Origin: Prosthecobacter sp.
Lineage (GTDB): Bacteria; Verrucomicrobiota; Verrucomicrobiia; Verrucomicrobiales; Verrucomicrobiaceae
NCBI GenBank assembly: GCA_044345215.1
Contig: JBIJBO010000002.1
Coordinates: forward strand, 272-64,271
Direction: 5' to 3'
DNA: 64,000 nucleotides
In this document: positions 8,439 to 58,476 of the stretch, piece after piece
Layout: every line of letters begins with the position of its first letter
Numbering within the stretch: the first letter of the stretch is position 1
Made by a program: the position numbers and the translations under genes
The notes under the pieces: model-generated
Database searches by the model: none
Seen by the model: the letters and a program-made list of their open reading frames with translations, nothing else
Told to the model about the DNA's origin: nothing

Positions 8439-12575
<4,137 letters not shown>

Positions 12576-45100: not shown

Positions 45101-45425
45101 CTTCACGATTGGCATGGGCACTGCGCTGCCCGTACGCACAGCTCCGAATGCTGCACTCACCGCCTTCAGGGCAGTTGCCCCGATCAGCGGGCTTTTCAAC
45201 GGCAGCTTTGTGCTGGCAGATGACAACCCGACGACACCACTGGCGAACCCAACGGAATACCGGCGGACGGTTAACTTCAAGGGACTCGCCGTGCCGATCA
45301 ATGGCACGCAGGTGGGTGTTGGATTCTTCATCCTGCCTCAGATACCAACTTCGAATCCGCTCACCACAACATCGAATTCGCCGGAACTCTCCGGCAGCGT
45401 GTTTTTCGATCCGGTGCTGAACTGA
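42183..45425 (+). CDS. Large secreted protein: six Ig (I-set-like) repeats + He_PIG/cadherin-like Ig domain + about 395-aa uncharacterised C-terminal region
   Basis: Internal ATG (MSFSPRRFL...FLMAALLLFSLSQAAKAQ) of track ORF 42159..45425, 1080 aa. Its ATG overlaps the upstream stop (ATGA at 42183-42186). The repeats carry [YF]QW.K.G..I.GAT...L.I......DAG.Y.C. The following domain reads PPAIVGGVFNYAITVSNDPL...LPRGLVINKSTGVISGIPSASGTFNILVSARN. Confidence 0.82.
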   Translation: MSFSPRRFLSNFQPPLHVKSSISTFLMAALLLFSLSQAAKAQSNLPVIERQPYRILYNTDHDPVGEWPPIGINPPRVDASSLVNLGCAIDLRIVATGNNLTYQWKKSGVNIPGATNSRLFVNVTSLLDAGRYQCEVKNLFGAVLSLPVRMGVVDISPSDRIIAASATAKVTLATSFRFPTTSGGFKYQWFKMLGATPDLNTDVMLANDLTYGGAATPSLEIKAPSVAPAGSYYCRITAYNTFMISGLRNLAIVPSPEPAMVQQGSPLQFSVTPTGPASVINNLSYQWNKAGVAIPEATDSSFIIGTAEIADAGLYSLTVIHPTLGSVTTPSVAAFVVDPPVSRVAVTGGMRAVLAAPPALNRAQTYQWFRDGSPLVDGGRITNATAASLTIALAQAADAGEYECRGTLFGDTVVVARPVLIVTPAPQSKVIALGETLQLEVQPEYGGSNFVDPALFGFQWVKGTGTTATVLAGETNSTLTIASTTAADFGQFNCRVSYNGSPPLATPPANVAIVNTALQVVNVNAGRSATLSPLVFAPRGLLFQWNFQGAPLLNSAKHAGVTSSRLAVNTASVADAGIYECEMSFAGGTSATAPVQLVVYSRPEIVNLEFPPAIVGGVFNYAITVSNDPLYAATGYDAASLPRGLVINKSTGVISGIPSASGTFNILVSARNAVGTTTQPATLTVSSLPSRFVGRFVAALPRMPAGEFGALGGRLDMTIASTGTTSGSLTVGGTRLAFKGSIAVAGTDPLTATATATINVERSGGNLSLSFNLQDDDYLYDGQISGAGNTLNFSGWRAVYTVAQPPSALAGVYNIGLFPQEPDAPALPHPEGTGYATLSISGSPTSDLAAGNYSMVTLLPDDTAFTTAAFVGPAGELLAYGYLYGTAGGGSVVSSGTSLNINALAAGKPVTGNLDWSRPATATRRYKEGFGPLTLSASGGLYTAGPRLLAAESAELTFEGGGIELAALNPNAVFTIGMGTALPVRTAPNAALTAFRAVAPISGLFNGSFVLADDNPTTPLANPTEYRRTVNFKGLAVPINGTQVGVGFFILPQIPTSNPLTTTSNSPELSGSVFFDPVLN
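42315..43982 (+). repeat. Six tandem Ig-like domain repeats (about 85-105 aa each) within the 1080-aa protein
   Basis: YQW/FQW anchors at residues about 102, 187, 285, 366, 458 and 543. Each is followed about 25-30 aa later by DAG.Y.C / DFGQFNC. Confidence 0.75.
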
Positions 45426-46732: not shown

Positions 46733-47809
46733 TCACTTCAATCCCGCTTCGGCCAGGCGCTCCTCCAGGTCGCTGGCCAGCAGGGCCTGGGTCATGGTTT
46801 CCAGCCGCCCCTCCATGACCCGGTCGAGGTCGTACAAGGTCAGGTCGATGCGGTGGTCGGTGACGCGGTTTTGCGGGTAATTGTAGGTGCGGATTTTTTC
46901 CTCGCGGCCGCCCGAGCCGATGAGACTGCGCCGGTGTGCGGAGTATTTTTCAGCCTCCTCCTGCTGCCGCCGTTCGAGCAGGCGCGAACGCAGGATGGTG
47001 AGGGCCTTCTCCTTGTTCTTGATCTGGCTGCGGCCGTCCTGGCAGCGCACGATCAGGCCGGTCGGCAGGTGCATGACCTGCACGGCGGAATCGGTCGTGT
47101 TGACGCCCTGTCCGCCGGCGCCGGAGGAGCGGCTGACCTCGATGCGCACTTCTTCCGGGCGCAGTTCCAGATCCACTTCGTCGGCCTCGGGCAGCACGGC
47201 CACGGTGGCGGCGGAGGTGTGGATGCGCCCCTGGGCCTCGGTGGCCGGCACGCGCTGGACGCGGTGCACGCCGCTTTCGTACTTGAGAACTCGGAAGACG
47301 TCCTCGCCGCTGATCTTCAGGACGATTTCCTTGTAGCCGCCGACGTCGGATGGACTCGCCTCCAGCGTTTCGACCCGCCAGCCGCGCGCTTCGGCGAAGC
47401 GTGTGTACAACCGCGCCAGATCGGCGGCGAACAGCGAGGCCTCGTCGCCGCCGGTGCCGGCGCGGATTTCGACCAAGGCGTCGCGGCCCTCCAGGGGGTC
47501 GGGCGGCAGGATGGCGAATTGCACAGCCTTCTCGAGTTCGGCGACCTGTGTTTCCAGAGTGGGCAGGTCCGCGCGCGCCAGTTCGGCCAGTTCGGCGTCC
47601 TCGCCGTGGGCGAGGTCGCGGCTGGCTGCGAGCTCGGCGACTTGGCGCTGGTAGGCGTCCCAGTTCTGCAGCAGGCTGCCGAGCTGGCGATGCTCGCGCG
47701 TGAGTTCACCGGCCTTTTTGGGGTCGTCGAAAAAGCCGGGCTGCCCCATCAGCTCCTCGAGCAGCAGGAAGCGCGCGCGCTTGGTTTCGATGATGGCACG
47801 GTAGTCCAT
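46733..47809 (-). CDS. prfA: Peptide chain release factor 1
   Basis: Internal ATG (MDYRAIIETKRARF...) of track ORF 46733..47842, 358 aa. It has the PAT tripeptide (RVQRVPATEAQGRIHTS), GGQ (SGAGGQGVNTTDSAV) and RTYNYPQNRVTDHR. Confidence 0.96.
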   Translation of the reverse strand: MDYRAIIETKRARFLLLEELMGQPGFFDDPKKAGELTREHRQLGSLLQNWDAYQRQVAELAASRDLAHGEDAELAELARADLPTLETQVAELEKAVQFAILPPDPLEGRDALVEIRAGTGGDEASLFAADLARLYTRFAEARGWRVETLEASPSDVGGYKEIVLKISGEDVFRVLKYESGVHRVQRVPATEAQGRIHTSAATVAVLPEADEVDLELRPEEVRIEVSRSSGAGGQGVNTTDSAVQVMHLPTGLIVRCQDGRSQIKNKEKALTILRSRLLERRQQEEAEKYSAHRRSLIGSGGREEKIRTYNYPQNRVTDHRIDLTLYDLDRVMEGRLETMTQALLASDLEERLAEAGLK

Positions 47810-47884
47810 GGATCTCGGGCAAAGAAAAACGGTGTCCGGCACAGGGCGCGGACACCGTCAAGGGGATGGGAGGCTGGCGCGCGA

Positions 47885-48130
47885 TTAGGAGGCGCTGGCG
47901 TCGCTGAGCTTGGGTGTCGAGCGGCGGGCGCGGGTGCTGCCGTAGCGCTGGGCGAACTTGTCGACGCGGCCGGCGGTGTCGATGAAGCGCTGTTCACCGG
48001 TGAAGAAGGGGTGGCAGGCAGCGCAGATGCCGATGCGGAGATTCTGAACCGTCGAAATCGTCTGGTAGACCGCGCCGCAGGTGCAGGTGATGGTGGTTTC
48101 GTAAACCGTGGGGTGTCCTTGTTCTTTCAT
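47885..48130 (-). CDS. rpmE: 50S ribosomal protein L31 (Cys-containing type A)
   Basis: Internal ATG (MKEQGHPTVYETTITCTCGAVYQT...ICAACHPFFTGEQRFIDTAGRVDKF) of track ORF 47885..48223, 81 aa. The rpmE-prfA adjacency is common. Confidence 0.93.
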   Translation of the reverse strand: MKEQGHPTVYETTITCTCGAVYQTISTVQNLRIGICAACHPFFTGEQRFIDTAGRVDKFAQRYGSTRARRSTPKLSDASAS

Positions 48131-48313
48131 GGGCTTGGAGGTCACGGGTAGCCGGCGAGGGGCACATGCCACTTTCACCGGAGCGTGGGATGCGGAGTCT
48201 GGCACAGGAGCTCCGTCCGTCAACGATTTTCTCCCGACCCGAGGCGGTGCTGTGACGCCATCGCGCCACCCTTCCGGGCTGGCGATCGGGCGCGGAAGCT
48301 GTCAGACTCGGGG

Positions 48314-50260
48314 ATGCCGGTTCCTCGTGCCCTCCACCCGTTGCTCGCCGGGCTGCTGCTGCTGGCCACCGGCTGTGGTGGGCTTGACCGGCTGCTCACG
48401 AACGCCGACCTTGAACGGCTGACGGGGGAAATTGCCGCCCTGGAAGCCCGGCTCGCCCGCCTGCCGGCGCTGCGGGTCGCGGCCCAGCCGCATCAGCGTC
48501 TCGGTTTTCACGGCCGCAGCGGTGATCCCGCCTGGATCGAGCTTGAGCTGGATCGCGAGGCCCCGCCCGATGAACTGGTGCTGTTCCCGGCGCGCACCGC
48601 CGATCCGGCCGGCGGCGACACCGCCAGCGGCTTTCCCTCCGCACTGCGCGTGCTCGGAGCCGGGGGGGGCGCGTCCTTGCGACTTCTGGCCGAATGGCGG
48701 CAGCCTGCGGACGATGCCGTGTTCGACCCGCCCTTCCTGCGCCTGCCGCTGTCTGCAGCACCCCTGCGGCGGCTGCGTTTGGAAGTGCCTGGCGGCCAGG
48801 CGCGTGGCCGCGGCCGTTTTTTTGCCTTGGGCGAGGTGGTCCTGCTTGCCGGTGGCATCAATCTCGCCCTGGGCGCGCCGGTGCGTGCCAGTGAGGGCCT
48901 TCTCAACCCGCCGCGTTGGCAGCCGGAGAACCTCACCGACGGCTTCCTGTGGTTCGGCAACCTGCAGGGCCTGAGTGCCGCGAGTGCCAACGGCTACCAC
49001 AGCCGCATCGAGCTGTCGCCGCAGGCCGTGCCCAAATGGGTTGAGGTGGATCTCGGCGCGGAAGTCGCCGTCGACGAGGTGCGCCTGGTGCCGGCCCGGC
49101 CGGTCGATTACGCCGATGTCGCCGGGTTCGGTTTTCCAGCGCGCTATCGGGTCGAATTGCTGCAGGAAACCGGCCCCGGACTTCGCCTGCGTGCAACTCA
49201 GGACGATTCACCCAATCCCGGGGATGCGGCCGTTTGCCTGCCGGCAGGCGGGCAGGCGGCCAGGCGGGTAAGGGTCACTGCCGAACGGCTGTGGCAGCGC
49301 AGCCAAGACTACATCTTCGCCCTCGCCGAGCTGCAGGTTTGGGCGGGCGGCCGCAACCGGGCGCTGAGGGCGGAGGTCATCTGTTCCGATCAGGTCGACG
49401 CCAGATCCTGGTCGCCGCAGGCCCTGGTGGATGGCCATGACAGCCGCCGTGAATTGTTGTCCTGGACGGATTGGCTGGCGCAGACCAGCCAGCGCGAAAC
49501 GCTCATCCGTTCACTGAGCCAGGCCCGTCAGCGACTCGGGGTGCTTGAGCACCAACGTCAGCGCGCCCTGGTGCATGGCTTGCTTCTCAGCGGAGGTCTG
49601 GTTTTGCTGATCACCGCGGCCCTGCTCGGTTGGATGCACCACCGTCAGAAAATCGCCCGCCAGCACTTGCGTGAGCGCCTGGCCCGCGACCTGCACGATG
49701 AGATTGGTTCCCAGCTCAGCCACCTGTCCCTGCTCGCCGGTCAGGGGGATGCTGCCGCCTTGCCCAAGATTGCCGCCGGCACCCGCGAGTTGCAGCAGGT
49801 CATGCGCGATCTGGTCTGGCTGCTGGCACCCGGCGGCGGCGATGCCCGTGACTTCACCGCCCGACTGCGGGCGACGGCCAGGAAGTGGCTTGAGCCGGCG
49901 GTGAACGAGGTGCAGGTCGAATTGAACGGACTGCCTCCCGAGGGTCAGTTGCCGCTCGACTGGGCGCGCGAGATTCTGCTGTTTGTTCGCGAGGCACTGA
50001 CCAATGCCGCCCGTCACAGCCGGGCCCGGCGTGCCGCGGTTCGTCTGGAATGGCGAGCGGAGACCTTTGTCTGGGTGCTGGAGGACGACGGCATCGGGTT
50101 TGACGAACAGGCAGCCGATTTTGTCGCCGGTTGCGGTTTGGACAATCTCCGCCACCGGGCCGGCGTTTTACAGGGACAGGTCGTCATCACCTCCCGCCCC
50201 GGCAGTGGCACTCGCATCGAATTGATCTGTCCGCATCCCCATGAACCTCTGGCTCATTGA
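48314..50260 (+). CDS. Sensor histidine kinase (HisKA_3/HATPase) with lipoprotein-type signal and two extracytoplasmic discoidin-like modules
   Basis: Internal ATG (MPVPRALHPLLAGLLLLATGCGG, a lipobox) of track ORF 48185..50260, 648 aa. Two sensor modules of about 150 aa each (GFPSALRV...FFALGEVVLLAGG and GFGFPARYRVE...YIFALAELQVWAGG), one TM helix (LLLSGGLVLLITAALLGW), the H-box LARDLHDEIGSQLSHL, the N-box REALTNAARHS and the G-box EDDGIGF. Confidence 0.88.
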   Translation: MPVPRALHPLLAGLLLLATGCGGLDRLLTNADLERLTGEIAALEARLARLPALRVAAQPHQRLGFHGRSGDPAWIELELDREAPPDELVLFPARTADPAGGDTASGFPSALRVLGAGGGASLRLLAEWRQPADDAVFDPPFLRLPLSAAPLRRLRLEVPGGQARGRGRFFALGEVVLLAGGINLALGAPVRASEGLLNPPRWQPENLTDGFLWFGNLQGLSAASANGYHSRIELSPQAVPKWVEVDLGAEVAVDEVRLVPARPVDYADVAGFGFPARYRVELLQETGPGLRLRATQDDSPNPGDAAVCLPAGGQAARRVRVTAERLWQRSQDYIFALAELQVWAGGRNRALRAEVICSDQVDARSWSPQALVDGHDSRRELLSWTDWLAQTSQRETLIRSLSQARQRLGVLEHQRQRALVHGLLLSGGLVLLITAALLGWMHHRQKIARQHLRERLARDLHDEIGSQLSHLSLLAGQGDAAALPKIAAGTRELQQVMRDLVWLLAPGGGDARDFTARLRATARKWLEPAVNEVQVELNGLPPEGQLPLDWAREILLFVREALTNAARHSRARRAAVRLEWRAETFVWVLEDDGIGFDEQAADFVAGCGLDNLRHRAGVLQGQVVITSRPGSGTRIELICPHPHEPLAH

Positions 50261-50867
50261 AGACCACCGTGCCTTGCGCGAATCGCTTGTGCTCGCCCTG
50301 CAACAAGCCCGGCCGGGCTGGAGCGTGCAAGCCTACGCCCGCGCCGGGGATGCGCTGAGCGCAGCGGCGGGTGGTGCGGCGGCCGATGTCCTCCTGCTCG
50401 ATCTCGGCCTGCCCGGCCTTGGTGGCCTGGAGGCGCTGCCGTTGTTGAAATCCGCCCTGCCGGTTGCCGAGGTCGTGGTCTTCACGGTCTTCGACGATGC
50501 CGACAAAATCTATGCCGCCATTTGTGCCGGTGCCTCGGGCTACCTGCTCAAGTCGGAGCCGGTTGAGACCTTGGTGCGCGCGGTCGAGGAAGTCCGCGAG
50601 GGCGGTTCGCCCATGCACCCGCAGGTGGCACGCAAGGTTCTTGACCGGTTCAGCGGCCGGCGGCCGGCGCCGGAATCCATCCTGTCCGAACGCGAGCGCG
50701 GGGTGCTGCAGGCCATGGCCGATGGGCTGACAAAAAAGGAGATTGCCGCCCGGCTCGACCTGAGCGTGCACACGGTCGACAACTACCTCCGTCGCATTTA
50801 TCGCAAGCTGCATGTCAACACCCTGCAGGGCGCGGTGGCGAAGGCGTTCAAGGACGGGCTTCTGTGA
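50241..50867 (+). CDS. Response regulator, NarL/FixJ (LuxR HTH) family
   Basis: 208 aa, with REC (LWLIEDH...DVLLLDLGLPGLGG...GASGYLLK) and an HTH (LSERERGVLQAMADGLTKKEIAARLDLSVHTVDNYLRRIYRKL). It overlaps the kinase 3' end by 20 nt. Confidence 0.92.
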   Translation: MNLWLIEDHRALRESLVLALQQARPGWSVQAYARAGDALSAAAGGAAADVLLLDLGLPGLGGLEALPLLKSALPVAEVVVFTVFDDADKIYAAICAGASGYLLKSEPVETLVRAVEEVREGGSPMHPQVARKVLDRFSGRRPAPESILSERERGVLQAMADGLTKKEIAARLDLSVHTVDNYLRRIYRKLHVNTLQGAVAKAFKDGLL

Positions 50868-50915
50868 CGTGATCCCGTGACAGGAAAATCCGCGCGCACT
50901 GCCGTATTCAAAATC

Positions 50916-53843
50916 ATGATGCTTCGCACCGGTCTCCTTTTGCTGGCCGCCACCACCGCGGTCGCCGCGCCCGATTTTGAGCGCGAGGTGGCGCCCATCC
51001 TGGAGTCGCGCTGCATGGCCTGCCACGACGCGGCCCAGGCCGAGGGGGAGGTCCGCCTCGACACCCGCGAGGCGGTGCTTGAACATCTGGTGCCCGGCCG
51101 ACCCGAGGCCAGCGCCCTCATCGACCAGGTCAGCGGCGCCAGGCCGGCCATGCCCAGGAAAGAAAAACCGCTGACCACCGCCCAAGTCGGGATTCTGCGC
51201 GCCTGGGTGCAGGCGGGCGCGCCCTGGCCGGAGACGCGGGTGCTTGCCGACAAACCCGCGCGTGACCTGAACTGGTGGAGTCTGCGGCAGATTCCAAGCC
51301 CGAAGTCGCCGAATCCCGAGGGCCATCCGGTTGATGCGTTCCTCGAGGCGAAGCTGGCCGGGCGAGGCCTGGCCCCGGGGCCCGAAGCCGATTCCGTGAC
51401 TCTGGTGCGCCGGCTCACCTACGATCTCACCGGCCTGCCACCCGACCCGGCGGATCTGCCGGAGCCTTCGGTGCGGCTCACCGACGCGACCTGGGAGGCA
51501 CTCGTTGACCGTCTGCTCGCCCGTCCGGCCTTTGGCGAGAAGTGGGGGCAGCACTGGCTCGATCTGGTCCGCTATGCCGAGACCCACGGCTATGACAAGG
51601 ACAAGCCCAGGCTGAACGCCTGGCCCTACCGCGATTACGTCATCCGCAGCTTCAACAGCGACAAGCCCTACGACCGCTTTGTTCAGGAACAGATCGCCGG
51701 CGATGCGCTGTTTCCCGGGCAGCCCGACGGTGTGCTCGGCCTCGGATTTCTCGCCGCCGGTCCGTGGGATTTCATCGGCCACACCGAGGTCGGCGAGGGC
51801 AAGGTCGACGGCCGCATCGCCAAGCACCTGGATCGCGATGAAATGGTCTCCGCCGTCTTCAACGTCTTCACCAGCACCACGGTGCAGTGCGCCCAATGCC
51901 ACCACCACAAGTTCGATCCGGTGACGATGCCGGATTACTATCGTCTGCATGCCGTCTTCGCCGCGGTCGACCGTGCCGACCGGGTGTATGCCGGGTTGCC
52001 GCCGGATCAGGAACAACGCCGCAACGCCCTGCTGGCGCGCATCAACACCCTCAAGGCCGAGCAGACGAAGCTGAGCGGCGAAGCCAAGCGCGAGCTCGGC
52101 GCGCGCACCTCCGGCATCGACCGCCGGCTCGCCGAGTTGAAGGCGAAACACGGTTCGCCGCTGCGCCCGCAGTATGGCTGGCACAGCCAGGTGGCGAAGG
52201 CCCAGGACACGGTGAAGTGGGTGCAGATGGATCTCGGCAAAGCCCAGGGCGTGCAGCAGGTGCGGCTCATCCCCGCCTACGACACCTTCAACGGCATCGG
52301 CGCCGGCTTCGGTTTTCCAGTCCGCTACAGGGTCGAGGCCTGCAACGACCCGGAATTCAGACAAGGCGTTCGACTCATCCACGACGCCACCGGCACCGAC
52401 CAGCCCAACCCTCGCCACGGTGAGATCGTGCTGGATGTCGGCGGGGATCCCGTGCGCCATCTGCGTGTCACCGCCACCCGGCTCGCGCCGCGTCAGAATG
52501 ACTTCATCTTCGCCCTCGGTGAACTGCAGGCGATCGGCGGTGAGAACCATGACAACCTCGCCCCGGGGGCCGTGGTCAGTGCCCTCGACAGCATTGAGGC
52601 GGGGCCGCGCTGGGGCCGTGCCAACCTGACGGATGGCATCTGGCATCGCGAGATCGGCGACCCGGTCGCGCTCGCTGAACTGCGCGAGCTGGAGTCCCAA
52701 AAGACGGCGATCGAGCGCGAACTCGCTGATCCAGCGCGCGAAGCCCGACTTGCCGTGCTCGCCAAGGAACTGGCCGCCCTGAATCCCGAATTGGCAGCCT
52801 ATCCCAAGGGGGAGCTCGTCTATGCCGCCGCGACCGATTTTACGGTTCAGGGTCGCTTCCTCGCCACCGGTGGCAAGCCTCGCGAGATCCGCCTCCTGCA
52901 GCGCGGCGACATCCGCGCGCCAGGCGATCTCATGAGGCCCGGGCTGCCGCCGCTCTGGCCGGGGGTTGAGGAGCAGTTCCACCTGCCGCCGCAAGCGACC
53001 GAGTCCGCTGCACGTGCGGAACTGGCGCGGGCCGTGACTTCACCCGAAAACCCGCTGTTCTGGCGCAGCATCGTCAACCGGCTCTGGCTCTGGACGTTTG
53101 GCCAGCCGCTCGTCGGCACCCCGAATGATTTCGGCCGCATGGGCCAGCCGCCCACGCATCCGGAACTGCTGGACTTCCTCGCCGGCCTTTTGCGCGACGA
53201 TTCCCGGCACTCGCTGAAGAGCCTGGTGCGCCTGCTCGTCACCAGCCGCGCCTATCGCCGTTCCTCCGGGCACAACATCGACAACGCCCGGCTCGACGCC
53301 AACAACGAGCTGCTCTGGCGTGCGAACCGCCGCCGTCTCAGCGCCGAGGAATTTCGCGACAGCCTGCTGGCTGCCGCCGGTGTCCTGCACCTGGAACCGC
53401 GCGGCGGGCCGTCCTTCCAGGACTTCGTGATCGAGAAGCCCCAGCATTCGCCGCACTACCAGTACCACCTGTTTGATCCGAACGATGCCGCCGGCCACCG
53501 CCGCAGCGTCTACCGCTTCATCGTGCGCAGCCAGCCGCAACCCTTCCTCACCAGTCTCGACTGTGCCGACCCCTCGCAGAGTGTGCCGCGGCGCGATGAA
53601 TCCACCACCGCCCTGCAGGCGCTGGCGCAGTGGAACAACCGCCTCGTCGAGGCCATGTCGATCCGGTTTGGCGAACGCCTGGCGCGTGCGGCGGATCCCG
53701 TCGAGGCCGCCTGCCAAACCGCCCTCGGCCGGGCCCCAACCGCGGACGAACGCAGCGTGCTCACCAGCCATCTGCAGGTCCACGGATCCGCCGCGCTCGC
53801 CCGTGTGGTCTTCAACCTCAACGCCTTCGTCTACCTCGACTGA
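50916..53843 (+). CDS. PSCyt1 (CxxCH) - DUF1549 - discoidin-like insert - DUF1553 protein
   Basis: Internal ATG (MMLRTGLLLLAATTAVAAPDFEREVAPILESRCMACHD...) of track ORF 50877..53843, 975 aa. DUF1549 strings are VDAFLEAKLA, LVRRLTYDLTGLPP, WGQHWLDLVRYAETHGYDKD and CAQCHHHKFDP. The central module is KWVQMDLG...GFGFPVRYRVE...FIFALGELQAIGG. The DUF1553-type C-terminus has NPLFWRSIVNRLW, RRRLSAEEFRDS and FNLNAFVYLD. Confidence 0.9.
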   Translation: MMLRTGLLLLAATTAVAAPDFEREVAPILESRCMACHDAAQAEGEVRLDTREAVLEHLVPGRPEASALIDQVSGARPAMPRKEKPLTTAQVGILRAWVQAGAPWPETRVLADKPARDLNWWSLRQIPSPKSPNPEGHPVDAFLEAKLAGRGLAPGPEADSVTLVRRLTYDLTGLPPDPADLPEPSVRLTDATWEALVDRLLARPAFGEKWGQHWLDLVRYAETHGYDKDKPRLNAWPYRDYVIRSFNSDKPYDRFVQEQIAGDALFPGQPDGVLGLGFLAAGPWDFIGHTEVGEGKVDGRIAKHLDRDEMVSAVFNVFTSTTVQCAQCHHHKFDPVTMPDYYRLHAVFAAVDRADRVYAGLPPDQEQRRNALLARINTLKAEQTKLSGEAKRELGARTSGIDRRLAELKAKHGSPLRPQYGWHSQVAKAQDTVKWVQMDLGKAQGVQQVRLIPAYDTFNGIGAGFGFPVRYRVEACNDPEFRQGVRLIHDATGTDQPNPRHGEIVLDVGGDPVRHLRVTATRLAPRQNDFIFALGELQAIGGENHDNLAPGAVVSALDSIEAGPRWGRANLTDGIWHREIGDPVALAELRELESQKTAIERELADPAREARLAVLAKELAALNPELAAYPKGELVYAAATDFTVQGRFLATGGKPREIRLLQRGDIRAPGDLMRPGLPPLWPGVEEQFHLPPQATESAARAELARAVTSPENPLFWRSIVNRLWLWTFGQPLVGTPNDFGRMGQPPTHPELLDFLAGLLRDDSRHSLKSLVRLLVTSRAYRRSSGHNIDNARLDANNELLWRANRRRLSAEEFRDSLLAAAGVLHLEPRGGPSFQDFVIEKPQHSPHYQYHLFDPNDAAGHRRSVYRFIVRSQPQPFLTSLDCADPSQSVPRRDESTTALQALAQWNNRLVEAMSIRFGERLARAADPVEAACQTALGRAPTADERSVLTSHLQVHGSAALARVVFNLNAFVYLD

Positions 53844-53847
53844 CGCC

Positions 53848-55278
53848 ATGCAACGTCGCGATTTTCTTGCCTCCTTCGCCGGTCTCGCCCTCGCCGACCT
53901 GCTGCGCCGCGACGGCGCGCTTGCCGCGCCCGGAGTGCTGCGCAACGGCCTGCACCACCCGCCGCGAGCAAAGCGCGTCATTCAGCTCTTCATGGCCGGT
54001 GCGGCCAGCCATGTGGATTTGTGGGATCACAAGCCGTTGCTCAAGCAGAAGGACGGTCAGCCTTGGGATCCGGGCGAGAAGGTGGAGCTCTTCCAGAGCA
54101 CGCCAGGCGCCTGCTTGGCCAGCCCCTGGACCTTTCGACCCCATGGCGAGTCCGGCAAGCACCTGAGCGACATCGTCGCGCCGCTCGGGGCCGTGGTTGA
54201 TGACCTTGCCTTTCTGCACAATGTCGTTGGCAAGACCGGCGTGCACAGTCAGGGCACCCTGCTGCAGACGACCGGTTTCCAACTGCCGGGTTTCCCCAGC
54301 GCCGGCTCCTGGGTCAGCCATGCGCTTGGCAGCGAGAGCGACAACCTGCCGTCCTTCGTGGTCCTGCCCGACCACCGAGGTCTCGCTTCGAACGGCGCCA
54401 AGAACTGGGCCAGCGCGTTTCTGCCGGCCCAACATCAGGGCACGGTCATCCGCCCGGGCAGCGCCCAGCCCATCGCCGACCTGCAGCCGCCGTCCTCGGT
54501 GACGCCGGCGGCCGACCACGCGGGACTTGAGGTTCTCGCCCGGCTCAATGCGGCGCACGCGCAGGACCGCGTCGGCGACGACCGTCTGCAGGCGCGGGTG
54601 CGCAGTTATCAGCTGGCCGCCGCCATGCAGCTCAGCGCCACGGATGCCCTCGACGTCTCGCGCGAGCCGCGTCACATCCGCGAGCTCTACGGCCTTGCAC
54701 CCGAGGGGCCGGGCGTCAATGACACGACGATCAATGTCAGGGCCGAGACCGAGTTCTTCGGCCGCAAATGCCTGGTGGCCCGGCGCCTCCTGGAACGCGG
54801 GGTTCGCTTCGTGCAGATCTGGAGTGGCAATGACAACGGCTTCCCGCGCCGCAACTGGGACAGCCATGAGGACGTCCGGCGTGACCATGAGCCGCTCGCT
54901 CTTGGCATGGCGCGCGGCACCGCGGCGCTGATCCAGGACCTGAGGCAGCGCGGCATGCTCGAGGACACCGTCATCCTCTGGACCACCGAGTTTGGCCGCA
55001 TGCCCTGTTCGCAGGGCAGCAGGGGGCGCGACCACAATCCTTTTGTCTTCACCAACTGGCTCTGCGGCGGCGGTGTCAAGGGCGGTACCTACGGTGAGAG
55101 CGACGTCTGGGGCTTCCGCCCGGCCGATCCCGCCCGCGCCACCAGTGTCTATGACATCCACGCGACCGTGCTGCATCTGCTCGGCATCGACCACGAACGC
55201 CTTACCGTCCGCCACAACAGCATCGACCGCCGCCTCACCGATGTGCACGGGCATGTGTTGAACGATCTGCTGGCCTGA
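53848..55278 (+). CDS. DUF1501 family protein (sulfatase/alkaline-phosphatase fold) with twin-arginine signal
   Basis: Internal ATG (MQRRDFLASFAGLALADLL) of track ORF 53473..55278, 476 aa. It starts 4 nt after the upstream stop. Strings: VIQLFMAGAASHVDLWDHKP, FLHNVVGKTGVHSQG, WDSHED, TEFGRMP and RDHNPFVF. Confidence 0.92.
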   Translation: MQRRDFLASFAGLALADLLRRDGALAAPGVLRNGLHHPPRAKRVIQLFMAGAASHVDLWDHKPLLKQKDGQPWDPGEKVELFQSTPGACLASPWTFRPHGESGKHLSDIVAPLGAVVDDLAFLHNVVGKTGVHSQGTLLQTTGFQLPGFPSAGSWVSHALGSESDNLPSFVVLPDHRGLASNGAKNWASAFLPAQHQGTVIRPGSAQPIADLQPPSSVTPAADHAGLEVLARLNAAHAQDRVGDDRLQARVRSYQLAAAMQLSATDALDVSREPRHIRELYGLAPEGPGVNDTTINVRAETEFFGRKCLVARRLLERGVRFVQIWSGNDNGFPRRNWDSHEDVRRDHEPLALGMARGTAALIQDLRQRGMLEDTVILWTTEFGRMPCSQGSRGRDHNPFVFTNWLCGGGVKGGTYGESDVWGFRPADPARATSVYDIHATVLHLLGIDHERLTVRHNSIDRRLTDVHGHVLNDLLA

Positions 55279-55441
55279 GGGGCGCCCTTGCCCGCCCAGG
55301 GGACGAAATTGGAGACGTCCTCCGCACGCACTCTGGCCCGTCATCCCCCTGAGCGGCCCTGCCCCGGATGAACCGCGGCCGTTCCAGACCTTCATGGAAA
55401 AACAGGGGTGGAATCGGCCGCAGGCATCGTTAGCTTGAGGC

Positions 55442-56083
55442 GTGCCCTCCAAGCCCCTGTCCATTCTCCTGGCCGATGATCACGCCGTGGTCCGCAATGG
55501 CTTTCGCCACATCCTGGCGGCGCAGTGGGACATGGAGGTGATTGGCGAAGCTTCGAACGGTCGTGAGGCAGTCGAGATGGCGGAGCAACTCAAGCCGGAT
55601 GTTGTGGTGATGGATGTGACCATGCCCGAGCTGAACGGCATCGAGGCCTCGCGCCGGATTGCCAAAACCTGTCCGCGCACCCGCATCCTGGCGCTGTCGA
55701 TGCACAAGGACGCGGTTTACGTGCGCGAAATCCTGCGCGCCGGCGCCCACGGCTACCTGCTCAAGGATTCCAGCCAGAGCGACTTTCTTTCGGCGGTTCG
55801 CGCGGTCGCTGTCGGCAAGGGCTGGCTCAGTCCCGAGATCTCCGACGCCGTGCTCGAGGATTACCGCAAGCACGTGACGAATCCGGTCGACCTGCTGTCC
55901 ACGCGCGAGCGCGAGGTGCTGCAGATGATTGCTGAAAGCAAGACTAACAAGGAGATCGCCACGGCGCTGCACCTCAGCGTTTACACGGTTGAGGCCCATC
56001 GCGCTCGCATCATGGAAAAACTCAACCTGCATTCGATCGGCGAGCTGGTACGATTCGCCATGCGCAACGGCCTCATTGACTGA
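55442..56083 (+). CDS. Response regulator, NarL/FixJ (LuxR HTH) family
   Basis: 213 aa, GTG start. REC strings are ILLADDHAVVRNG, DVVVMDVTMPELNG and GAHGYLLKD. The HTH is LSTREREVLQMIAESKTNKEIATALHLSVYTVEAHRARIMEKL. Confidence 0.93.
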   Translation: MPSKPLSILLADDHAVVRNGFRHILAAQWDMEVIGEASNGREAVEMAEQLKPDVVVMDVTMPELNGIEASRRIAKTCPRTRILALSMHKDAVYVREILRAGAHGYLLKDSSQSDFLSAVRAVAVGKGWLSPEISDAVLEDYRKHVTNPVDLLSTREREVLQMIAESKTNKEIATALHLSVYTVEAHRARIMEKLNLHSIGELVRFAMRNGLID

Positions 56084-56093
56084 GGATCATCCG

Positions 56094-57419
56094 ATGGCGG
56101 ACGAATGGTTCATCCTTGGCAGGCGTGTCGACGAGCGAACGGTGCTCACCGGCCTCGTGGCCGGCTTTGGTGCGGTCATGCTGCTGCTGGGGGCTGCCGG
56201 TTGGCTGGCTGTCAGCGAGGGACGCTCGATCCGCCTCAATGCCGAGCAGCTCATGCGCGAGCAGGTGCTCGTCACCCGCCTGCTGCACGAGGCCCAGGTG
56301 GAGGAGGATGCTCTCGCGCTGGCCCTGCACCGCCTGACCCGTTCGGTCGATCCGGCGGAGCGTGCGGCACAGCTGCAGGAACTTGAACAGGCTGACCGGG
56401 CCATTGCCCGGCTCGCCGACCATGCCCGCATGACGGCACAGGCGGCACCCTGGCATCGCCTGGCCGCCGCAACCCGCGGCTTTTCCGAGCAGGTCCGCCA
56501 GGCATTCGCGGTCGAGGGTGGGATCTCACGCGAGCGCATGGAGGACCTGTTTTCCTCGCACGACGAAGTGGTGCGATTGATCCACGGGCTCATTCTCGAA
56601 AGCACGGACCACCTCGAACGGCTGGATCTGCGCCTCGCCGGCCACCTGCGCGCCCTCGCCGGCAAATCGGCTTTGCTGCTCGGTTCAGCGCTCGTTTTGT
56701 CCGGTGCCTGCGCGGCCGGCACGATCGCCTACGTGCGTGCCAGCATCCGCCGGATCGAGGGGCAAACCGATGAACTCAACCGTGTCTCCTGGCACATGCT
56801 GCAGAGCCAGGAGGAGGCGGCGCGGCGCTTCAGCCATGAACTCCACGACGAACTCGGTCAGTCGCTGGCCGCAGTGCGCGCCAACTTGGTGGCGCGCACC
56901 TGCACCGGCGATGCCGATCGACGGGCCGACTGCCTGCAACTGGTCGATGCCGCCATCGCCAACGTCCGTGAGTTGTCGCAGTTGCTGCGACCGGTGATCC
57001 TGGACGACTTTGGTCTCGACGCCGGTTTGCGGTGGCTGACCGATGGCTTCGCGCAGCGCACGCGCCTGCAGGTGGATTACGAGTCCGATCTCGACACGCG
57101 TCTGCACAGCGACCTCGAGACGCACCTGTTCCGCATCGGCCAGGAGGCGCTGACCAACGTCGCCCGTCATGCCGGTGCCTCGCGAGTCAGCCTGCGGCTG
57201 CATGCCGGGGAGGGGCGCGTGCGTCTGGAGATCGAGGACGACGGCCGCGGTCTGCCGGCGGATCAGGCGAGCGCCCGTCCCGGGCTGGGGCTGACTGGCA
57301 TGCGCGCCCGAGCCCGGCAGTGTGGTGGCACGCTGGAAATCCAGCCGGTTGTGCCCCACGGGCTCGCTCTGCGGGTGGAGGTGCCTCTGCGCGGCGCCGA
57401 GCCGGAGGAGCGGGAGTGA
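56094..57419 (+). CDS. Sensor histidine kinase (HisKA_3/HATPase) with helical periplasmic sensor
   Basis: Internal ATG (MADEWFILGRRVDERTVLTGLVAGFGAVMLLLGAAGWLA) of track ORF 55929..57419, 441 aa. It has two TM helices around an all-helical loop of about 190 aa, the H-box FSHELHDELGQSLAAV, the N-box QEALTNVARHA and the G-box EDDGRGL. It starts 10 nt after the regulator gene. Confidence 0.88.
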   Translation: MADEWFILGRRVDERTVLTGLVAGFGAVMLLLGAAGWLAVSEGRSIRLNAEQLMREQVLVTRLLHEAQVEEDALALALHRLTRSVDPAERAAQLQELEQADRAIARLADHARMTAQAAPWHRLAAATRGFSEQVRQAFAVEGGISRERMEDLFSSHDEVVRLIHGLILESTDHLERLDLRLAGHLRALAGKSALLLGSALVLSGACAAGTIAYVRASIRRIEGQTDELNRVSWHMLQSQEEAARRFSHELHDELGQSLAAVRANLVARTCTGDADRRADCLQLVDAAIANVRELSQLLRPVILDDFGLDAGLRWLTDGFAQRTRLQVDYESDLDTRLHSDLETHLFRIGQEALTNVARHAGASRVSLRLHAGEGRVRLEIEDDGRGLPADQASARPGLGLTGMRARARQCGGTLEIQPVVPHGLALRVEVPLRGAEPEERE

Positions 57420-57489
57420 CGAATGACCAAGGACCAAGGCGCCTTGGTGGAGTGGATGGAGTGATCGCGTGACTCACGCATGGGTTTGA

Positions 57490-58476
57490 ATGGAGTTTCC
57501 CAGACCAGCCCGGGAGGTGGGCGGATTCTTCAGGGCTCGCGCCCTCGCACTTGCAATTGGATCGGTCCCGCCGATTCAATCCGGCTTGAGCACTTCTGCG
57601 CCGGCTGCGGTTCCCGCCTTCGATTTTCGTCGGGGCGCAGGCTGGATGCTGCTGTCGCTGACGGGATTCACCGGCATGGCCCTGCTGGTGCGTCACCTTG
57701 GTGCCGAGCGTGGCATCAGCGCCTGGTGGGCGCTGTTTTTTCGCGCCAGCGTCGGCATGGCGGTTGTTTGGCTGGTCTTTGCACCCGGTGGCCGGGTGAG
57801 TTTTCGACGGGCCCTGTGCGGGCGGCTGCTGGTTACACGCGGCGTCATCGGGGCGCTGGGCACGGCGGCCTATTACATCACGCTGCCCTTGCTGGGCGCC
57901 GGCAAAGCCACCCTGATTGGCAACACTTGGGCGGTTTGGGCGGCACTGCTGGCCGCCTTCCTGCTGCGCGAGCCGCTAGGCTTGCGCAGGCTCGCCGGCA
58001 TCCTGCTCGCGGTTGCCGGTGTCGCCCTGCTCACCGGCCTGCACGGCGGCGACTTCAGTCGTGTCGGCACCGCCGAGGCCATTGCCCTGGCCGGAGCCTT
58101 CGCCGCGGCGCTGGTGGTGGTCGTCATCCGCCAGCTCACCCTCACCGAGACCAGTGGCACGATCTTTGCCTCGCAGTGCCTCTATGCCGGGCTGCTGGCG
58201 CTGCCCTTTTTGTTCAGTCTCCCGGTGCCGGGTGCGCTGGACGTGGCCCTGCTCACCGCCGCCGCCCTGCTGGCGGCGCTGGGCCAGTTGGCGATGACCG
58301 AGGGTTTTCGTTACCTGCCGGTGAGCACCGGTGGCGCCTTTCAGATGCTGCTGCCGCTCGTGCTGACGCTTGCCGGCGTGCTGTTTTTTGCCGAGCCCTT
58401 CTCGCTGGTGCAGGGAGCGGGCGGCGTCTGCATTTTGGCCGGCTGCCACCTGACCGTCACGCAGCGCCGCAGATGA
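57490..58476 (+). CDS. EamA/DMT-superfamily transporter
   Basis: 328-aa track ORF. About 10 TM helices form two EamA-like halves (LLREPLGLRRLAGILLAVAGVALL and FAEPFSLVQGAGGVCILAGC). ATG 57646 (MLLSLTGFTG...) is a plausible shorter start. Confidence 0.78.
   Translation: MEFPRPAREVGGFFRARALALAIGSVPPIQSGLSTSAPAAVPAFDFRRGAGWMLLSLTGFTGMALLVRHLGAERGISAWWALFFRASVGMAVVWLVFAPGGRVSFRRALCGRLLVTRGVIGALGTAAYYITLPLLGAGKATLIGNTWAVWAALLAAFLLREPLGLRRLAGILLAVAGVALLTGLHGGDFSRVGTAEAIALAGAFAAALVVVVIRQLTLTETSGTIFASQCLYAGLLALPFLFSLPVPGALDVALLTAAALLAALGQLAMTEGFRYLPVSTGGAFQMLLPLVLTLAGVLFFAEPFSLVQGAGGVCILAGCHLTVTQRRR

What the first reader, a model, noticed from the sequence alone, without database searches (positions are those of the whole stretch)
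48314..57419. Candidate uncharacterised system: PSCyt-DUF1549-DUF1553 + Tat-DUF1501 pair flanked by two NarL-type two-component systems
Six same-strand genes are packed tightly.
- A lipoprotein-type HisKA_3 kinase overlaps its NarL regulator by 20 nt.
- After a 48-nt gap comes a 975-aa protein with an N-terminal CMACH haem motif, DUF1549, CAQCHHHKFDP and DUF1553.
- After a 4-nt gap comes a DUF1501 protein with a twin-arginine signal (MQRRDFLASF).
- After a 163-nt gap comes a second NarL regulator, and 10 nt later its HisKA_3 kinase.
DUF1549/DUF1553 + DUF1501 pairs are heavily amplified in Planctomycetota and Verrucomicrobiota. As far as I know they have no experimentally defined function or ligand. 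Here one copy appears to have its own dedicated sensory input on both sides, so it is a tractable entry point to the function of the family.
Basis: partly seen in the sequence, partly recalled or inferred. Interest (0 to 1): 0.8.

Follow-up and report, generated by a model that had tools for sequence, protein, structure and literature searches.

The report
Sensor kinase wired to orphan PSCyt–DUF1501 pair
A two-component sensor in a Verrucomicrobia-type genome shares its sugar-binding-like sensing domain and an 18-bp DNA control site with the neighbouring cytochrome-like protein and sulfatase-fold enzyme, a very abundant protein pair of unknown function that this link makes testable; the second sensor system next door is probably unrelated.

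Summary
All six genes, their domains and the stated gaps are confirmed.

**Upstream system (HK1-RR1): linked to the PSCyt1-DUF1549-DUF1553 (PSD) + Tat-DUF1501 pair by four lines of evidence**
- HK1's periplasmic sensor is a tandem discoidin/CBM32-like module. It is 39% identical (E 2e-24) to the domain inserted between DUF1549 and DUF1553 in PSD.
- The order HK-RR-PSD-DUF1501 recurs in Verrucomicrobiales, Chthoniobacterales, an Opitutus genome (there PSD lacks a detectable insert) and Gemmataceae. One relative has a permuted order.
- An 18-bp inverted repeat (GTSACG-N6-CGTSAC) lies upstream of both HK1 and PSD. In the window a perfect copy fills the 48-nt RR1-PSD gap. It is enriched more than 20-fold at these positions across relatives, including genomes where the two gene pairs are not adjacent.
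- The regulator's recognition helix co-varies with the repeat half-site.

**Downstream system (RR2-HK2)**
- It is adjacent only in the closest relatives and has no such site, so it is probably unrelated.

**DUF1501 and function**
- DUF1501 has a sulfatase-like fold but no formylglycine motif.
- The biochemical function remains unknown. I found no published function and no published link to a two-component system.

**Scores**
- Novelty: new variant of a known kind.
- Interest: 0.62.

The parts
48252..48269 (+). Operator-like inverted repeat upstream of HK1: GTGACGCCATCGCGCCAC, 1 mismatch to GTSACG-N6-CGTSAC. It is followed by 33 nt, CAGACT (48303-48308), 5 nt, then the HK1 ATG.
   Evidence: Equivalent sites lie upstream of HK genes in L081, L082/83, L084, L093, L001, L004, L068, L169 and others.
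48314..50260 (+). HK1, a sensor histidine kinase. Order of parts: signal peptide (lipobox-like), N-terminal helix, two tandem discoidin/CBM32-like beta-sandwiches (about aa 55-383, nt 48476-49462), a long helix, one transmembrane segment, HisKA_3, HATPase_c.
   Evidence: Pfam. AlphaFold2 model of aa 23-419, pLDDT 92.9. Foldseek matches to tandem CBM32, neuropilin b1b2 and factor Va C1C2. A family of more than 500 homologues, each followed by a NarL-type regulator wherever downstream sequence was available.
50241..50867 (+). RR1, a NarL/LuxR-type response regulator (REC + GerE HTH). It overlaps HK1 by 20 nt.
   Evidence: Pfam and NCBIfam. Its recognition helix co-varies with the operator half-site across lineages.
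50864..50881 (+). Perfect operator-like inverted repeat GTGACGTGATCCCGTGAC. It overlaps the RR1 stop codon and is followed by 23 nt, TATTCA (50905-50910), 5 nt, then the PSD ATG. This is the inferred RR1-dependent promoter of PSD-DUF1501 and would give a leaderless or near-leaderless mRNA.
   Evidence: The same site lies 45-77 nt upstream of the PSD ATG in most Verrucomicrobiales orthologues and further upstream (to -136) in several Chthoniobacterales and the Gemmataceae locus, including loci without an adjacent HK-RR. A TAnnnT hexamer lies 4-7 nt before the ATG in most orthologues.
50916..53843 (+). PSD protein, 975 aa. Order of parts: signal peptide; PSCyt1 cytochrome-c-like domain (CMACH, nt 51012-51155); DUF1549/PSCyt2 (CAQCH, nt 51327-51971); inserted discoidin/CBM32-like domain (aa about 412-600, nt 52149-52715); DUF1553/PSD1 (nt 53013-53771).
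   Evidence: Pfam. The insert is 39% identical to HK1 domain 2, E 2e-24, and 30% to domain 1. CxxCH conservation. Weak cytochrome c6 match in the PDB.
53848..55278 (+). DUF1501 protein, 476 aa, with a twin-arginine signal. Alkaline-phosphatase-superfamily, sulfatase-like fold without a C/S-x-P-x-R motif. Orthologues are 76-95% identical across orders.
   Evidence: Pfam. Profile against the PDB gave mostly S1 sulfatases plus LtaS2. AlphaFold2 pLDDT 71.5. Foldseek matches to sulfatases, LtaS and phosphonate monoester hydrolase. Conservation.
55442..57419 (+). RR2 (55442-56083) and HK2 (56094-57419): a second NarL-type system whose kinase has a four-helix-bundle-like sensor. It is adjacent but not shown to belong to the unit.
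   Evidence: Pfam and NCBIfam (closest to MctS/MctR, below the cut-off). It follows DUF1501 only in L081 and L089. There is no operator copy upstream.

Best explanation
HK1-RR1 and PSD-DUF1501 form one regulon.

**Proposed mechanism**
- HK1 is a membrane histidine kinase whose periplasmic sensor consists of two discoidin/CBM32-like beta-sandwiches.
- On binding a periplasmic ligand, most likely a glycan or glycoconjugate fragment, HK1 phosphorylates the NarL/LuxR-type regulator RR1.
- An RR1 dimer binds the 18-bp inverted repeat GTSACG-N6-CGTSAC. One copy lies upstream of its own operon at 48252-48269.
- The second copy lies in the 48-nt gap at 50864-50881. It is centred about 43 nt upstream of the PSD start, where a TATTCA hexamer sits 5 nt before the ATG. 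Binding there would switch on PSD-DUF1501 as a leaderless or short-leader transcript.
- PSD is a Sec-exported protein with two CxxCH motifs. It carries one copy of the same discoidin-like domain, so sensor and effector probably recognise the same or a related ligand.
- DUF1501 is a Tat-exported enzyme with a sulfatase-like fold and no formylglycine motif. It would act on that ligand together with PSD.
- RR2-HK2 is a separate, lineage-specific neighbour.

**Shown**
- Domain homology, folds, synteny, operator conservation and positions, and helix/half-site co-variation.

**Inferred**
- RR1 binding and activation, the leaderless start, ligand identity, shared ligand specificity, haem attachment and the enzyme chemistry.
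For: **Shared domain**
- HK1 aa 227-411 against PSD aa 421-615: 39% identity, E 2e-24. HK1 aa 74-211 also matches.
- The HK1 sensor model has pLDDT 92.9. Its best structural matches are tandem CBM32 modules, neuropilin b1b2 and factor Va C1C2.
- This domain subfamily occurs almost only in about 650-aa two-copy kinases and about 950-1000-aa PSD proteins. A few CAZymes also carry it: a GH78 rhamnosidase and a GH141/beta-helix protein.

**Synteny**
- HK-RR-PSD(insert)-DUF1501 occurs in L003, L088, L093 and L103 (Verrucomicrobiales); L009-L012 and L048 (Chthoniobacterales); L018 (Gemmataceae); and L084. L023 (Opitutus) has the same order, but its PSD has no detectable insert.
- L082 has a permuted order: box, DUF1501 (86% orthologue), a 113-aa gene, box, HK, RR.

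**Operator**
- The window has a perfect copy in the RR1-PSD gap and a 1-mismatch copy upstream of HK1.
- A score of at least 11/12 is found upstream of 26% of PSD genes and 13% of HK genes, against 0.6-0.8% of random windows.
- 21 of 75 strong sites in 2.19 Mb lie within 250 nt upstream of HK, PSD or DUF1501 starts.
- The site is present upstream of PSD without a nearby HK (L090/91, L087, L108, L086) and upstream of HK without a nearby PSD (L001, L002, L004, L068, L082).

**Co-variation**
- GTGACGC half-sites go with the helix HTVDNY(L/V)RRIY. ATCCCGC half-sites go with HTVD(S/T)H(L/I)RNIY.

**DUF1501**
- Sulfatase-like fold and an invariant twin arginine.
Against: - There are no expression or binding data. 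The operator was defined from the same loci used to measure its enrichment, and the co-variation could reflect shared ancestry.
- Only about 10% of orthologous PSD-DUF1501 loci have HK-RR adjacent. In the other direction, about 13 of the 80 best HK loci have a PSD-DUF1501 pair nearby.
- In the window alone, sites with up to 2-3 mismatches are no more frequent than chance. Only the position and quality of the two best sites stand out.
- Discoidin domains also mediate protein and lipid binding, so a glycan ligand is not shown.
- The DUF1501 model is of moderate confidence (pLDDT 71.5, TM-scores 0.3-0.4), and I could not inspect active-site geometry.
- The very high conservation of DUF1501 (76-95%) fits a housekeeping role better than a nutrient-scavenging one.
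Confidence: 0.6

Rival explanations
1. One reading: both two-component systems are dedicated inputs to the PSD-DUF1501 pair, and the six genes act as one unit.
For: All six genes are on one strand with short gaps. The whole arrangement, including EamA and ThuA downstream, is kept in L081. RR2-HK2 also follows DUF1501 in L089.
Against: - L081 and L089 are close relatives (DUF1501 at least 91% identical).
- None of the other orthologous loci has an HK2 or RR2 homologue next to DUF1501.
- No operator copy lies in the 163-nt gap or near RR2.
- HK2's sensor is an unrelated four-helix-bundle type.
Confidence: 0.1
2. HK1 does not sense a free ligand. Its discoidin-like domains mimic the PSD insert and dock onto DUF1501 or PSD, so the kinase monitors the amount or substrate-loading of the enzyme complex. 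This would be a co-sensor or feedback design, as in transporter-coupled kinases.
For: - The sensor and insert domains are homologous and form old, separately conserved clades, as expected if both keep one common binding partner.
- DUF1501 is unusually conserved at 76-95%, consistent with several protein interfaces.
- In L082 the kinase stays next to DUF1501 even though PSD is absent.
Against: - No interaction data exist, and I could not run multimer modelling.
- Related domains in glycoside hydrolases and the structural neighbours (CBM32) point to carbohydrate binding.
Confidence: 0.2
3. The pair is a cell-envelope maintenance module. DUF1501 would act like LtaS or EptA as a transferase on an envelope polymer, and HK1-RR1 would be an envelope-state sensor of the LiaS/VraS kind. 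It would not be a nutrient-acquisition system.
For: - The Foldseek neighbours of DUF1501 include LtaS as well as sulfatases.
- There is no formylglycine motif.
- The DUF1501 sequence is very conserved across orders.
- HisKA_3/NarL systems include the envelope-stress sensors LiaS and MadS, which appear among the NCBIfam matches.
Against: - DUF1501 is soluble and Tat-exported, with no membrane domain, unlike LtaS and EptA.
- PSCyt-DUF1501 modules are massively amplified and often sit next to sulfatases and CBM-bearing genes (PMC5615132, PMC3542564), which fits substrate diversification.
- Related sensor domains occur in CAZymes.
Confidence: 0.15
4. Chance neighbours: neither two-component system has anything to do with the pair. 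The adjacency only reflects the high density of PSCyt-DUF1501 modules in PVC genomes.
For: - These modules are abundant: 41 copies of each PSD domain in R. baltica (PMC2754498).
- Most HK-family loci and most PSD-DUF1501 orthologue loci are not adjacent to each other.
Against: - The HK sensor and the PSD insert share a rare domain subfamily.
- The partner is always the same orthogroup, not a random paralogue.
- The operator is shared.
- The neighbourhood persists in a permuted order.
Confidence: 0.04

Closest known systems
PSCyt1/PSCyt2/PSD1 + DUF1501 'conserved genetic module' of PVC bacteria (Kamneva et al. 2012, PMC3542564; He et al. 2017, PMC5615132; domains first named in Rhodopirellula baltica)
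   Same: The domain architecture is the same, including the optional F5/8-type-C insert. The DUF1501 gene lies immediately downstream and carries a twin-arginine signal. The function is unknown.
   Different: Those papers report no link to a two-component system. Here one specific, highly conserved orthogroup is tied to a kinase that shares the insert domain and to a conserved operator.
NarL/LuxR-type two-component systems with HisKA_3 kinases (NarX-NarL, UhpB-UhpA, LiaS-LiaR)
   Same: It has a HisKA_3 H-box, HATPase_c, and a REC + GerE regulator. The kinase and regulator genes overlap. An inverted-repeat operator lies upstream of the system's own operon, suggesting autoregulation.
   Different: The sensor is a tandem discoidin/CBM32-like module behind a cleavable signal peptide, not a four-helix bundle or a multi-pass membrane domain. 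All matches to named NCBIfam equivalogs are far below their cut-offs.
Glycan-sensing regulators of polysaccharide utilisation loci (Bacteroides hybrid two-component systems, SusR, anti-sigma/ECF pairs)
   Same: The logic is the same: a periplasmic carbohydrate-binding sensor controls adjacent genes whose products recognise the same substrate.
   Different: This is not a hybrid kinase and has no AraC output or SusC/SusD genes. The regulated genes are a haem-motif protein and a sulfatase-fold enzyme, not glycoside hydrolases. This comparison rests on my own knowledge and was not tested here.
S1 formylglycine-dependent sulfatases and other alkaline-phosphatase-superfamily enzymes (LtaS, phosphonate monoester hydrolase)
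   Same: The overall fold of DUF1501 matches. Conserved polar residues occupy the positions of the sulfatase metal-binding motif.
   Different: There is no C/S-x-P-x-R motif. The sulfatase D-N/H-G motif aligns with T-E-F-G-R. There is no Pfam Sulfatase match. DUF1501 is Tat-exported and always paired with a cytochrome-like partner.

Membership tests
HisKA_3/NarL-type two-component system (HK1-RR1 and RR2-HK2) | Kinase with a HisKA_3 dimerisation/phospho-acceptor domain and a HATPase_c domain | tested here: met
   Pfam: HK1 HisKA_3 25.3 bits (cut-off 24) and HATPase_c 34.7 bits. HK2 27.1 and 49.7 bits. The H-box residues D459, H461, D462 and E463 are invariant in 20 homologues.
HisKA_3/NarL-type two-component system (HK1-RR1 and RR2-HK2) | Regulator with a receiver domain and a GerE/LuxR helix-turn-helix | tested here: met
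   Pfam Response_reg and GerE pass their cut-offs for RR1 and RR2.
HisKA_3/NarL-type two-component system (HK1-RR1 and RR2-HK2) | Phosphotransfer and DNA binding by the regulator | not testable with these tools
   Only an inferred operator and helix/half-site co-variation.
PSCyt1-DUF1549-DUF1553 + DUF1501 module of PVC bacteria | One protein with PSCyt1, PSCyt2 (DUF1549) and PSD1 (DUF1553), in that order | tested here: met
   Pfam 36.8, 244.5 and 249.4 bits, all above their cut-offs.
PSCyt1-DUF1549-DUF1553 + DUF1501 module of PVC bacteria | A DUF1501 gene immediately adjacent, with a twin-arginine signal | tested here: met
   4-nt gap. DUF1501 scores 438 bits. R3-R4 are invariant in 65 homologues. 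Tat export itself was not tested.
c-type cytochrome (PSD N-terminal domain and the DUF1549 motif) | CxxCH haem-attachment motif | tested here: met
   CMACH at aa 33 and CAQCH at aa 325, both conserved in orthologues. Weak cytochrome c6 match, E 0.0025.
c-type cytochrome (PSD N-terminal domain and the DUF1549 motif) | Covalently bound haem | not testable with these tools
   Needs haem staining or spectroscopy.
Discoidin / F5/8 type C / CBM32-like domain (HK1 sensor, PSD insert) | Galactose-binding-like beta-sandwich fold | tested here: met
   AlphaFold2 pLDDT 92.9. Foldseek top matches are tandem CBM32, neuropilin b1b2 and factor Va C1C2, with probability 1.00.
Discoidin / F5/8 type C / CBM32-like domain (HK1 sensor, PSD insert) | Pfam F5_F8_type_C match above the gathering score | tested here: inconclusive
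   The window's HK1 scores 18.5 bits against a cut-off of 28.2, and the window's PSD has no match. Several homologues pass, for example P0316, P0318 and P0350.
Discoidin / F5/8 type C / CBM32-like domain (HK1 sensor, PSD insert) | Carbohydrate binding | not testable with these tools
   Supported only by structural neighbours and by related domains in GH78 and GH141 proteins.
S1 formylglycine sulfatases (considered for DUF1501) | Alkaline-phosphatase-superfamily sulfatase fold | tested here: met
   Most of the 29 profile hits in the PDB are S1 sulfatases, plus LtaS2; best E 0.0014. The Foldseek top 50 are sulfatases, LtaS and phosphonate monoester hydrolase. The model is of moderate confidence.
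S1 formylglycine sulfatases (considered for DUF1501) | C/S-x-P-x-R formylglycine motif and the D-(N/H)-G metal motif | tested here: not met
   No such motif in the sequence. The sulfatase SDNGG segment aligns with TEFGR. No Pfam Sulfatase match. DUF1501 is therefore not filed as a sulfatase.

The most novel reading that the evidence does not exclude
The tandem CBM32-like sensor of HK1 and the homologous insert of PSD recognise the same periplasmic glycan-derived ligand. The PSD-DUF1501 pair would then be a previously unknown kind of enzyme system: a formylglycine-less sulfatase-fold catalyst working with a haem protein. That would make this orthogroup the first PSCyt-DUF1501 module whose inducer, regulon and substrate can be identified, and a key to the dozens of paralogous modules in PVC genomes. 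The same kinase family may also control the second orphan PVC module (PSCyt3/PSD2-5 + DUF1552), which follows it directly in L005 and L031, and after one intervening gene in L033.
Probability: 0.25. Interest if true: 0.85.

Novelty: new variant of a known kind. Interest (0 to 1): 0.62.

Why it matters
**Why it matters**
- PSCyt/PSD + DUF1501 modules are among the most amplified gene families in Planctomycetota and Verrucomicrobiota.
- In the literature I could search, none has been assigned a function since they were first named in the 2000s.
- This orthogroup has a predicted sensor, regulator, operator and promoter, and a sensor domain shared with the regulated protein.

**Experiments this opens**
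- Use the soluble HK1 sensor and the PSD insert as baits to find the ligand.
- Use the operator to define the regulon.
- Use regulator mutants or a phosphomimetic RR1 to force expression.
- A cultured organism, Phragmitibacter flavus, appears to carry the same arrangement.

**If the link is wrong**
- The region is just an ordinary two-component system next to one more orphan module.

Tried and rejected
**Searches that found nothing**
- PDB sequence searches with single proteins gave nothing for DUF1501 and only a weak cytochrome c6 hit for PSD.
- Literature searches for DUF1501, DUF1549, DUF1553, PSCyt and the Pfam accessions found only comparative-genomics papers with no function. A search for discoidin-type sensor kinases found nothing relevant, and one query was rejected for syntax.
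- The sigma-70 promoter and terminator scan of 47700-57700 found no promoter and no more terminators than chance. It cannot see the non-canonical hexamers proposed here.
- Cluster look-up gave no organism names.

**Methods that did not work well**
- My first two home-made gene callers for the high-GC loci picked antisense ORFs. A third was better but still missed DUF1501 in the window, so synteny counts rely on tblastn.
- I could not join the two P. flavus contig ends. There is no exact overlap, only a shared 26-nt repeat.
- Model coordinates are not exposed, so I could not inspect the DUF1501 active site or compare the discoidin ligand loops.

**Ideas tested and dropped**
- Recent domain exchange between HK and PSD within a genome is rejected. 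In the NJ tree no HK domain groups with the PSD insert of its own genome: PSD inserts form one clade and HK domain 2 sequences nearly do, with one outlier.
- I looked for a second operator copy next to the PSCyt3/DUF1552 genes downstream of HK-RR in L005, L013, L031 and L033 and found none.
- A 3-mismatch box-like site upstream of EamA (57456-57473) is set aside as within chance.

Full report
**1. The observation**

- HK1, 48314-50260: HisKA_3 + HATPase_c.
- RR1, 50241-50867: REC + GerE, overlapping HK1 by 20 nt.
- PSD, 50916-53843, 975 aa: PSCyt1 with CMACH, DUF1549 with CAQCHHHKFDP, and DUF1553.
- DUF1501, 53848-55278: begins MQRRDFLASF and starts 4 nt after PSD.
- RR2, 55442-56083.
- HK2, 56094-57419.

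Pfam confirms every domain call. Gene calls in a relative give the same protein lengths. Both CxxCH motifs are conserved in PSD orthologues, and the twin arginine is invariant in 65 DUF1501 homologues. HK1's N-terminus is a lipobox-like signal peptide in the nearer clade and an ordinary signal peptide in more distant homologues.

The flanks hold housekeeping or unrelated genes. Upstream are rlmN, prfA and rpmE. Downstream are an EamA transporter, ThuA and a HAD hydrolase. The window holds only one PSD-DUF1501 pair.

**2. The sensor of HK1 is homologous to a domain inside PSD**

BLASTP of HK1 against PSD aligns HK1 aa 227-411 with PSD aa 421-615. This is the stretch between DUF1549 and DUF1553, and the match is 39% identical with E 2e-24. 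HK1 aa 74-211 aligns with the same PSD stretch at E 1e-6. HK1 therefore carries two tandem copies of the domain that PSD carries once.

An AlphaFold2 model of HK1 aa 23-419, built on 64 homologues, has pLDDT 92.9. It shows an N-terminal helix, two beta-sandwiches, and a long helix leading to the single transmembrane segment. Foldseek against the PDB returns:
- tandem CBM32 modules (ZmpB CBM32-1/-2 with GalNAc);
- the CBM-bearing Akkermansia enzyme structure 8ayr;
- neuropilin b1b2, factor Va C1C2 and the DDR1 discoidin domain.

The three domain classes share a distinctive motif set: GyHS, KWVxvDLG, PAR/PAY, GFGFPxRY/FRVE, PNP, FALxEL and NLTDG.

An exhaustive search of 1.84 billion representatives with the PSD insert gives 1089 hits. 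The best 150 are nearly all of two kinds:
- proteins of about 650 aa with two matched stretches, which is the kinase family;
- proteins of about 940-1000 aa with one stretch, which is PSD.

The remainder are some PSDs with 2-4 copies and a few CAZymes, namely a GH78 rhamnosidase and a GH141/beta-helix protein. In a neighbour-joining tree the PSD inserts form one clade and the HK domain 2 sequences form one clade apart from a single outlier (L066). No HK domain groups with the PSD insert of its own genome, so the sharing is old and not a recent exchange.

**3. Synteny**

*From the kinase side.* The HK1 architecture is a large PVC family, with 510 hits among the candidates scored. A NarL-type regulator follows the kinase wherever downstream sequence was available. 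Among the 80 best genome loci and the metagenome contigs inspected, HK-RR is followed on the same strand by PSD (with the insert) and DUF1501 in:
- Verrucomicrobiales: L003, L088, L093, L103/L105;
- Chthoniobacterales: L009-L012, L048;
- a Gemmataceae planctomycete: L018;
- L084, whose kinase is 51% identical to HK1.

An Opitutus locus (L023) has a PSD without a detectable insert. L071, L079 and L015 have the pair in divergent or convergent orientation.

A relative with a 61% identical kinase (L082) has a different order: the DUF1501 orthologue (86% identical), a 113-aa gene, then HK-RR, with no PSD nearby.

In the cultured Phragmitibacter flavus, HK-RR reads off the end of one contig and PSD-DUF1501 starts 240 nt inside another. 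Both ends carry the same 26-nt repeat, so the two are probably adjacent.

*From the enzyme side.* The DUF1501 orthologue is unusually conserved, at 76-95% identity across Verrucomicrobiales, Akkermansiaceae and Planctomycetaceae. Only about 4 of 38 orthologous PSD-DUF1501 loci with enough upstream sequence have HK-RR adjacent. Adjacency is therefore recurrent but facultative.

**4. A shared operator**

Aligning the RR-to-PSD intergenic regions showed a conserved element. It is an inverted repeat, GTSACG-N6-CGTSAC.

In the window:
- A perfect copy, GTGACGTGATCCCGTGAC, lies at 50864-50881. It overlaps the RR1 stop codon. It is followed by 23 nt, TATTCA, 5 nt and the PSD ATG.
- A 1-mismatch copy lies at 48252-48269. 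It is followed by 33 nt, CAGACT, 5 nt and the HK1 ATG.

Across loci:
- A score of at least 11/12 occurs within 170 nt upstream of PSD in 11 of 43 loci and upstream of HK in 9 of 68, against 0.6-0.8% of random windows from the same loci.
- A generalised form that also covers the Chthoniobacterales variant ATCCCGC-N4-GCGTGAT behaves the same way.
- Of 75 strong sites in 2.19 Mb, 21 lie within 250 nt upstream of an HK, PSD or DUF1501 start.
- The site is present upstream of PSD where no kinase is nearby (L090/L091, L087, L108, P. flavus L086).
- It is also present upstream of HK-RR pairs with no PSD nearby (L001, L002, L004, L068, L082) and upstream of the displaced DUF1501 of L082. This pattern is what a regulon that works in cis or in trans would leave.
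- The regulator's recognition helix changes with the half-site. HTVDNY(L/V)RRIY goes with GTGACGC, HTVD(S/T)H(L/I)RNIY goes with ATCCCGC, and intermediate helices go with intermediate sites.
- A TAnnnT hexamer 4-7 nt before the PSD ATG is conserved in most orthologues. This suggests a promoter inside the short gap and a leaderless or near-leaderless mRNA. That is an inference.

Caveats:
- In the window alone, loosely matching sites are no more frequent than chance.
- The motif was derived from the loci used to test it.
- The co-variation may partly reflect phylogeny.

**5. The second two-component system**

RR2-HK2 follows DUF1501 only in L081 and L089, where DUF1501 is at least 91% identical. 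It is absent from all other orthologous loci. HK2 has an unrelated four-helix-bundle-like sensor. Its nearest named families, MctS and MctR, score far below their cut-offs. No operator copy precedes RR2. I treat it as an unrelated neighbour. Its own target is unknown, and I had no search left to look at its contexts elsewhere.

**6. What the pair may do**

A DUF1501 profile hits S1 sulfatases almost exclusively in the PDB. A moderate-confidence AlphaFold2 model (pLDDT 71.5) matches sulfatases, LtaS and a phosphonate monoester hydrolase. DUF1501 therefore belongs to the alkaline-phosphatase superfamily.

It lacks the C/S-x-P-x-R motif, and TEFGR replaces the sulfatase D-(N/H)-G motif. It is therefore not a canonical sulfatase. 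Family-wide invariant residues (D60, K62, H133, W337-D338-x-H340, E381, R384, R394, H396), with D57 and D395 invariant among the closer homologues, suggest a real active site of unknown chemistry. Tat export suggests that it folds or loads a cofactor in the cytoplasm.

PSD has a class-I cytochrome-c-like domain, a second invariant CxxCH motif, and the discoidin-like insert.

The best-supported model is a ligand-induced periplasmic module:
- The ligand, probably a glycan, is recognised by related domains in both sensor and effector.
- RR1 activates the pair.
- PSD presents or oxidises the substrate for DUF1501.

Rivals are a co-sensor design, in which HK1 docks onto DUF1501, and an envelope-maintenance role.

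**7. Comparison with what is known**

The module itself was described by Kamneva et al. 2012 (PMC3542564), including the F5/8-type-C inserts and the Tat signals, and by He et al. 2017 (PMC5615132). Both state that the function is unknown. An ECF sigma factor next to a PSD gene was noted in R. baltica (PMC2754498).

I found no paper linking these modules to a two-component system, and none describing discoidin-type sensor kinases of this kind. The logic resembles glycan-sensing regulators of polysaccharide utilisation loci, but none of their defining parts is present.

**8. Verdict**

- Observation: confirmed.
- Interpretation: partly supported. The upstream system is linked to the pair and the downstream one is not.
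- Novelty: new variant of a known kind. It is an ordinary signalling chassis with an unusual sensor, wired to a known but orphan module.
- Interest: 0.62. It is not a new kind of system, but it gives a concrete experimental handle on a long-standing orphan family.

Noticed in passing
L005 4484-8328; L031 6678-10840; L033 12991-18018; also L003, L007, L025, L034, L040 (divergent, upstream of HK): The same discoidin-sensor kinase family sits next to the other orphan PVC module, a PSCyt3/PSD2-5-type CxxCH protein plus a Tat-signal DUF1552 (HXXSHH) protein. The module follows HK-RR directly in L005 and L031 and after one intervening gene in L033. I found no second operator copy beside these genes, and the modules are abundant, so part of this may be chance.
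   Followed up: partly
L082 7603-12569: Permuted arrangement in a relative whose kinase is 61% identical: operator, DUF1501 orthologue (86%), a 113-aa gene, operator, HK, RR. No PSD is nearby and a transposase-associated gene lies downstream. The kinase stays linked to DUF1501 even without PSD.
   Followed up: partly
DUF1501 orthologues P0121-P0240; window 53848-55278: DUF1501 of this orthogroup is 76-95% identical across Verrucomicrobiales, Akkermansiaceae and Planctomycetaceae. Its partner PSD is only 45-78% identical and the kinase 35-50%. This is unusually strong constraint, or lateral transfer, for a periplasmic enzyme of unknown function.
   Followed up: partly
L087 8171-9002; L088 8106-8678; L084 15568-16029; L003 about 17121-18036; L103 about 9100-10000: In several relatives 0.4-0.9 kb is inserted between PSD and DUF1501. 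The inserts include small genes resembling toxin-antitoxin or abortive-infection genes (AbiEii, DUF6036, Rv0078B). In the window the two genes are 4 nt apart.
   Followed up: no
L169 last about 320 nt and L086 first about 160 nt (Phragmitibacter flavus contig ends): A repeated palindromic element of about 26 nt (…CCACCGACGTNTCGTCGGTC…) occurs several times at the ends of both contigs. It is probably the reason the assembly broke between RR and PSD.
   Followed up: partly
window 47887-48132 (- strand): A ribosomal protein L31 gene (rpmE) lies between prfA and HK1 and was not mentioned in the finding. It leaves an intergenic region of about 180 nt that contains the HK1 operator.
   Followed up: partly
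window 57456-57473: A weak operator-like site (ATGGAGTGATCGCGTGAC, 3 mismatches) lies 17-34 nt upstream of the EamA transporter gene. It is within chance expectation.
   Followed up: partly
L007 8063-8080 and 8122-8139: Two sites resembling the Planctomycetaceae form of the operator (GCCACGAAAACGCGTCAC) lie just upstream of a divergently oriented PSCyt3-type gene, about 1.9 kb from the kinase. They hint that this regulator family may also control that module type.
   Followed up: no
window 40846-45425; L081 1-3451: Upstream of rlmN lie a 446-aa secreted protein with a faint F5/8-type-C match and a 1088-aa protein of immunoglobulin-like repeats (Ig_3, Ig_2, I-set, He_PIG). They overlap by 28 nt and are conserved in the relative L081.
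   Followed up: no
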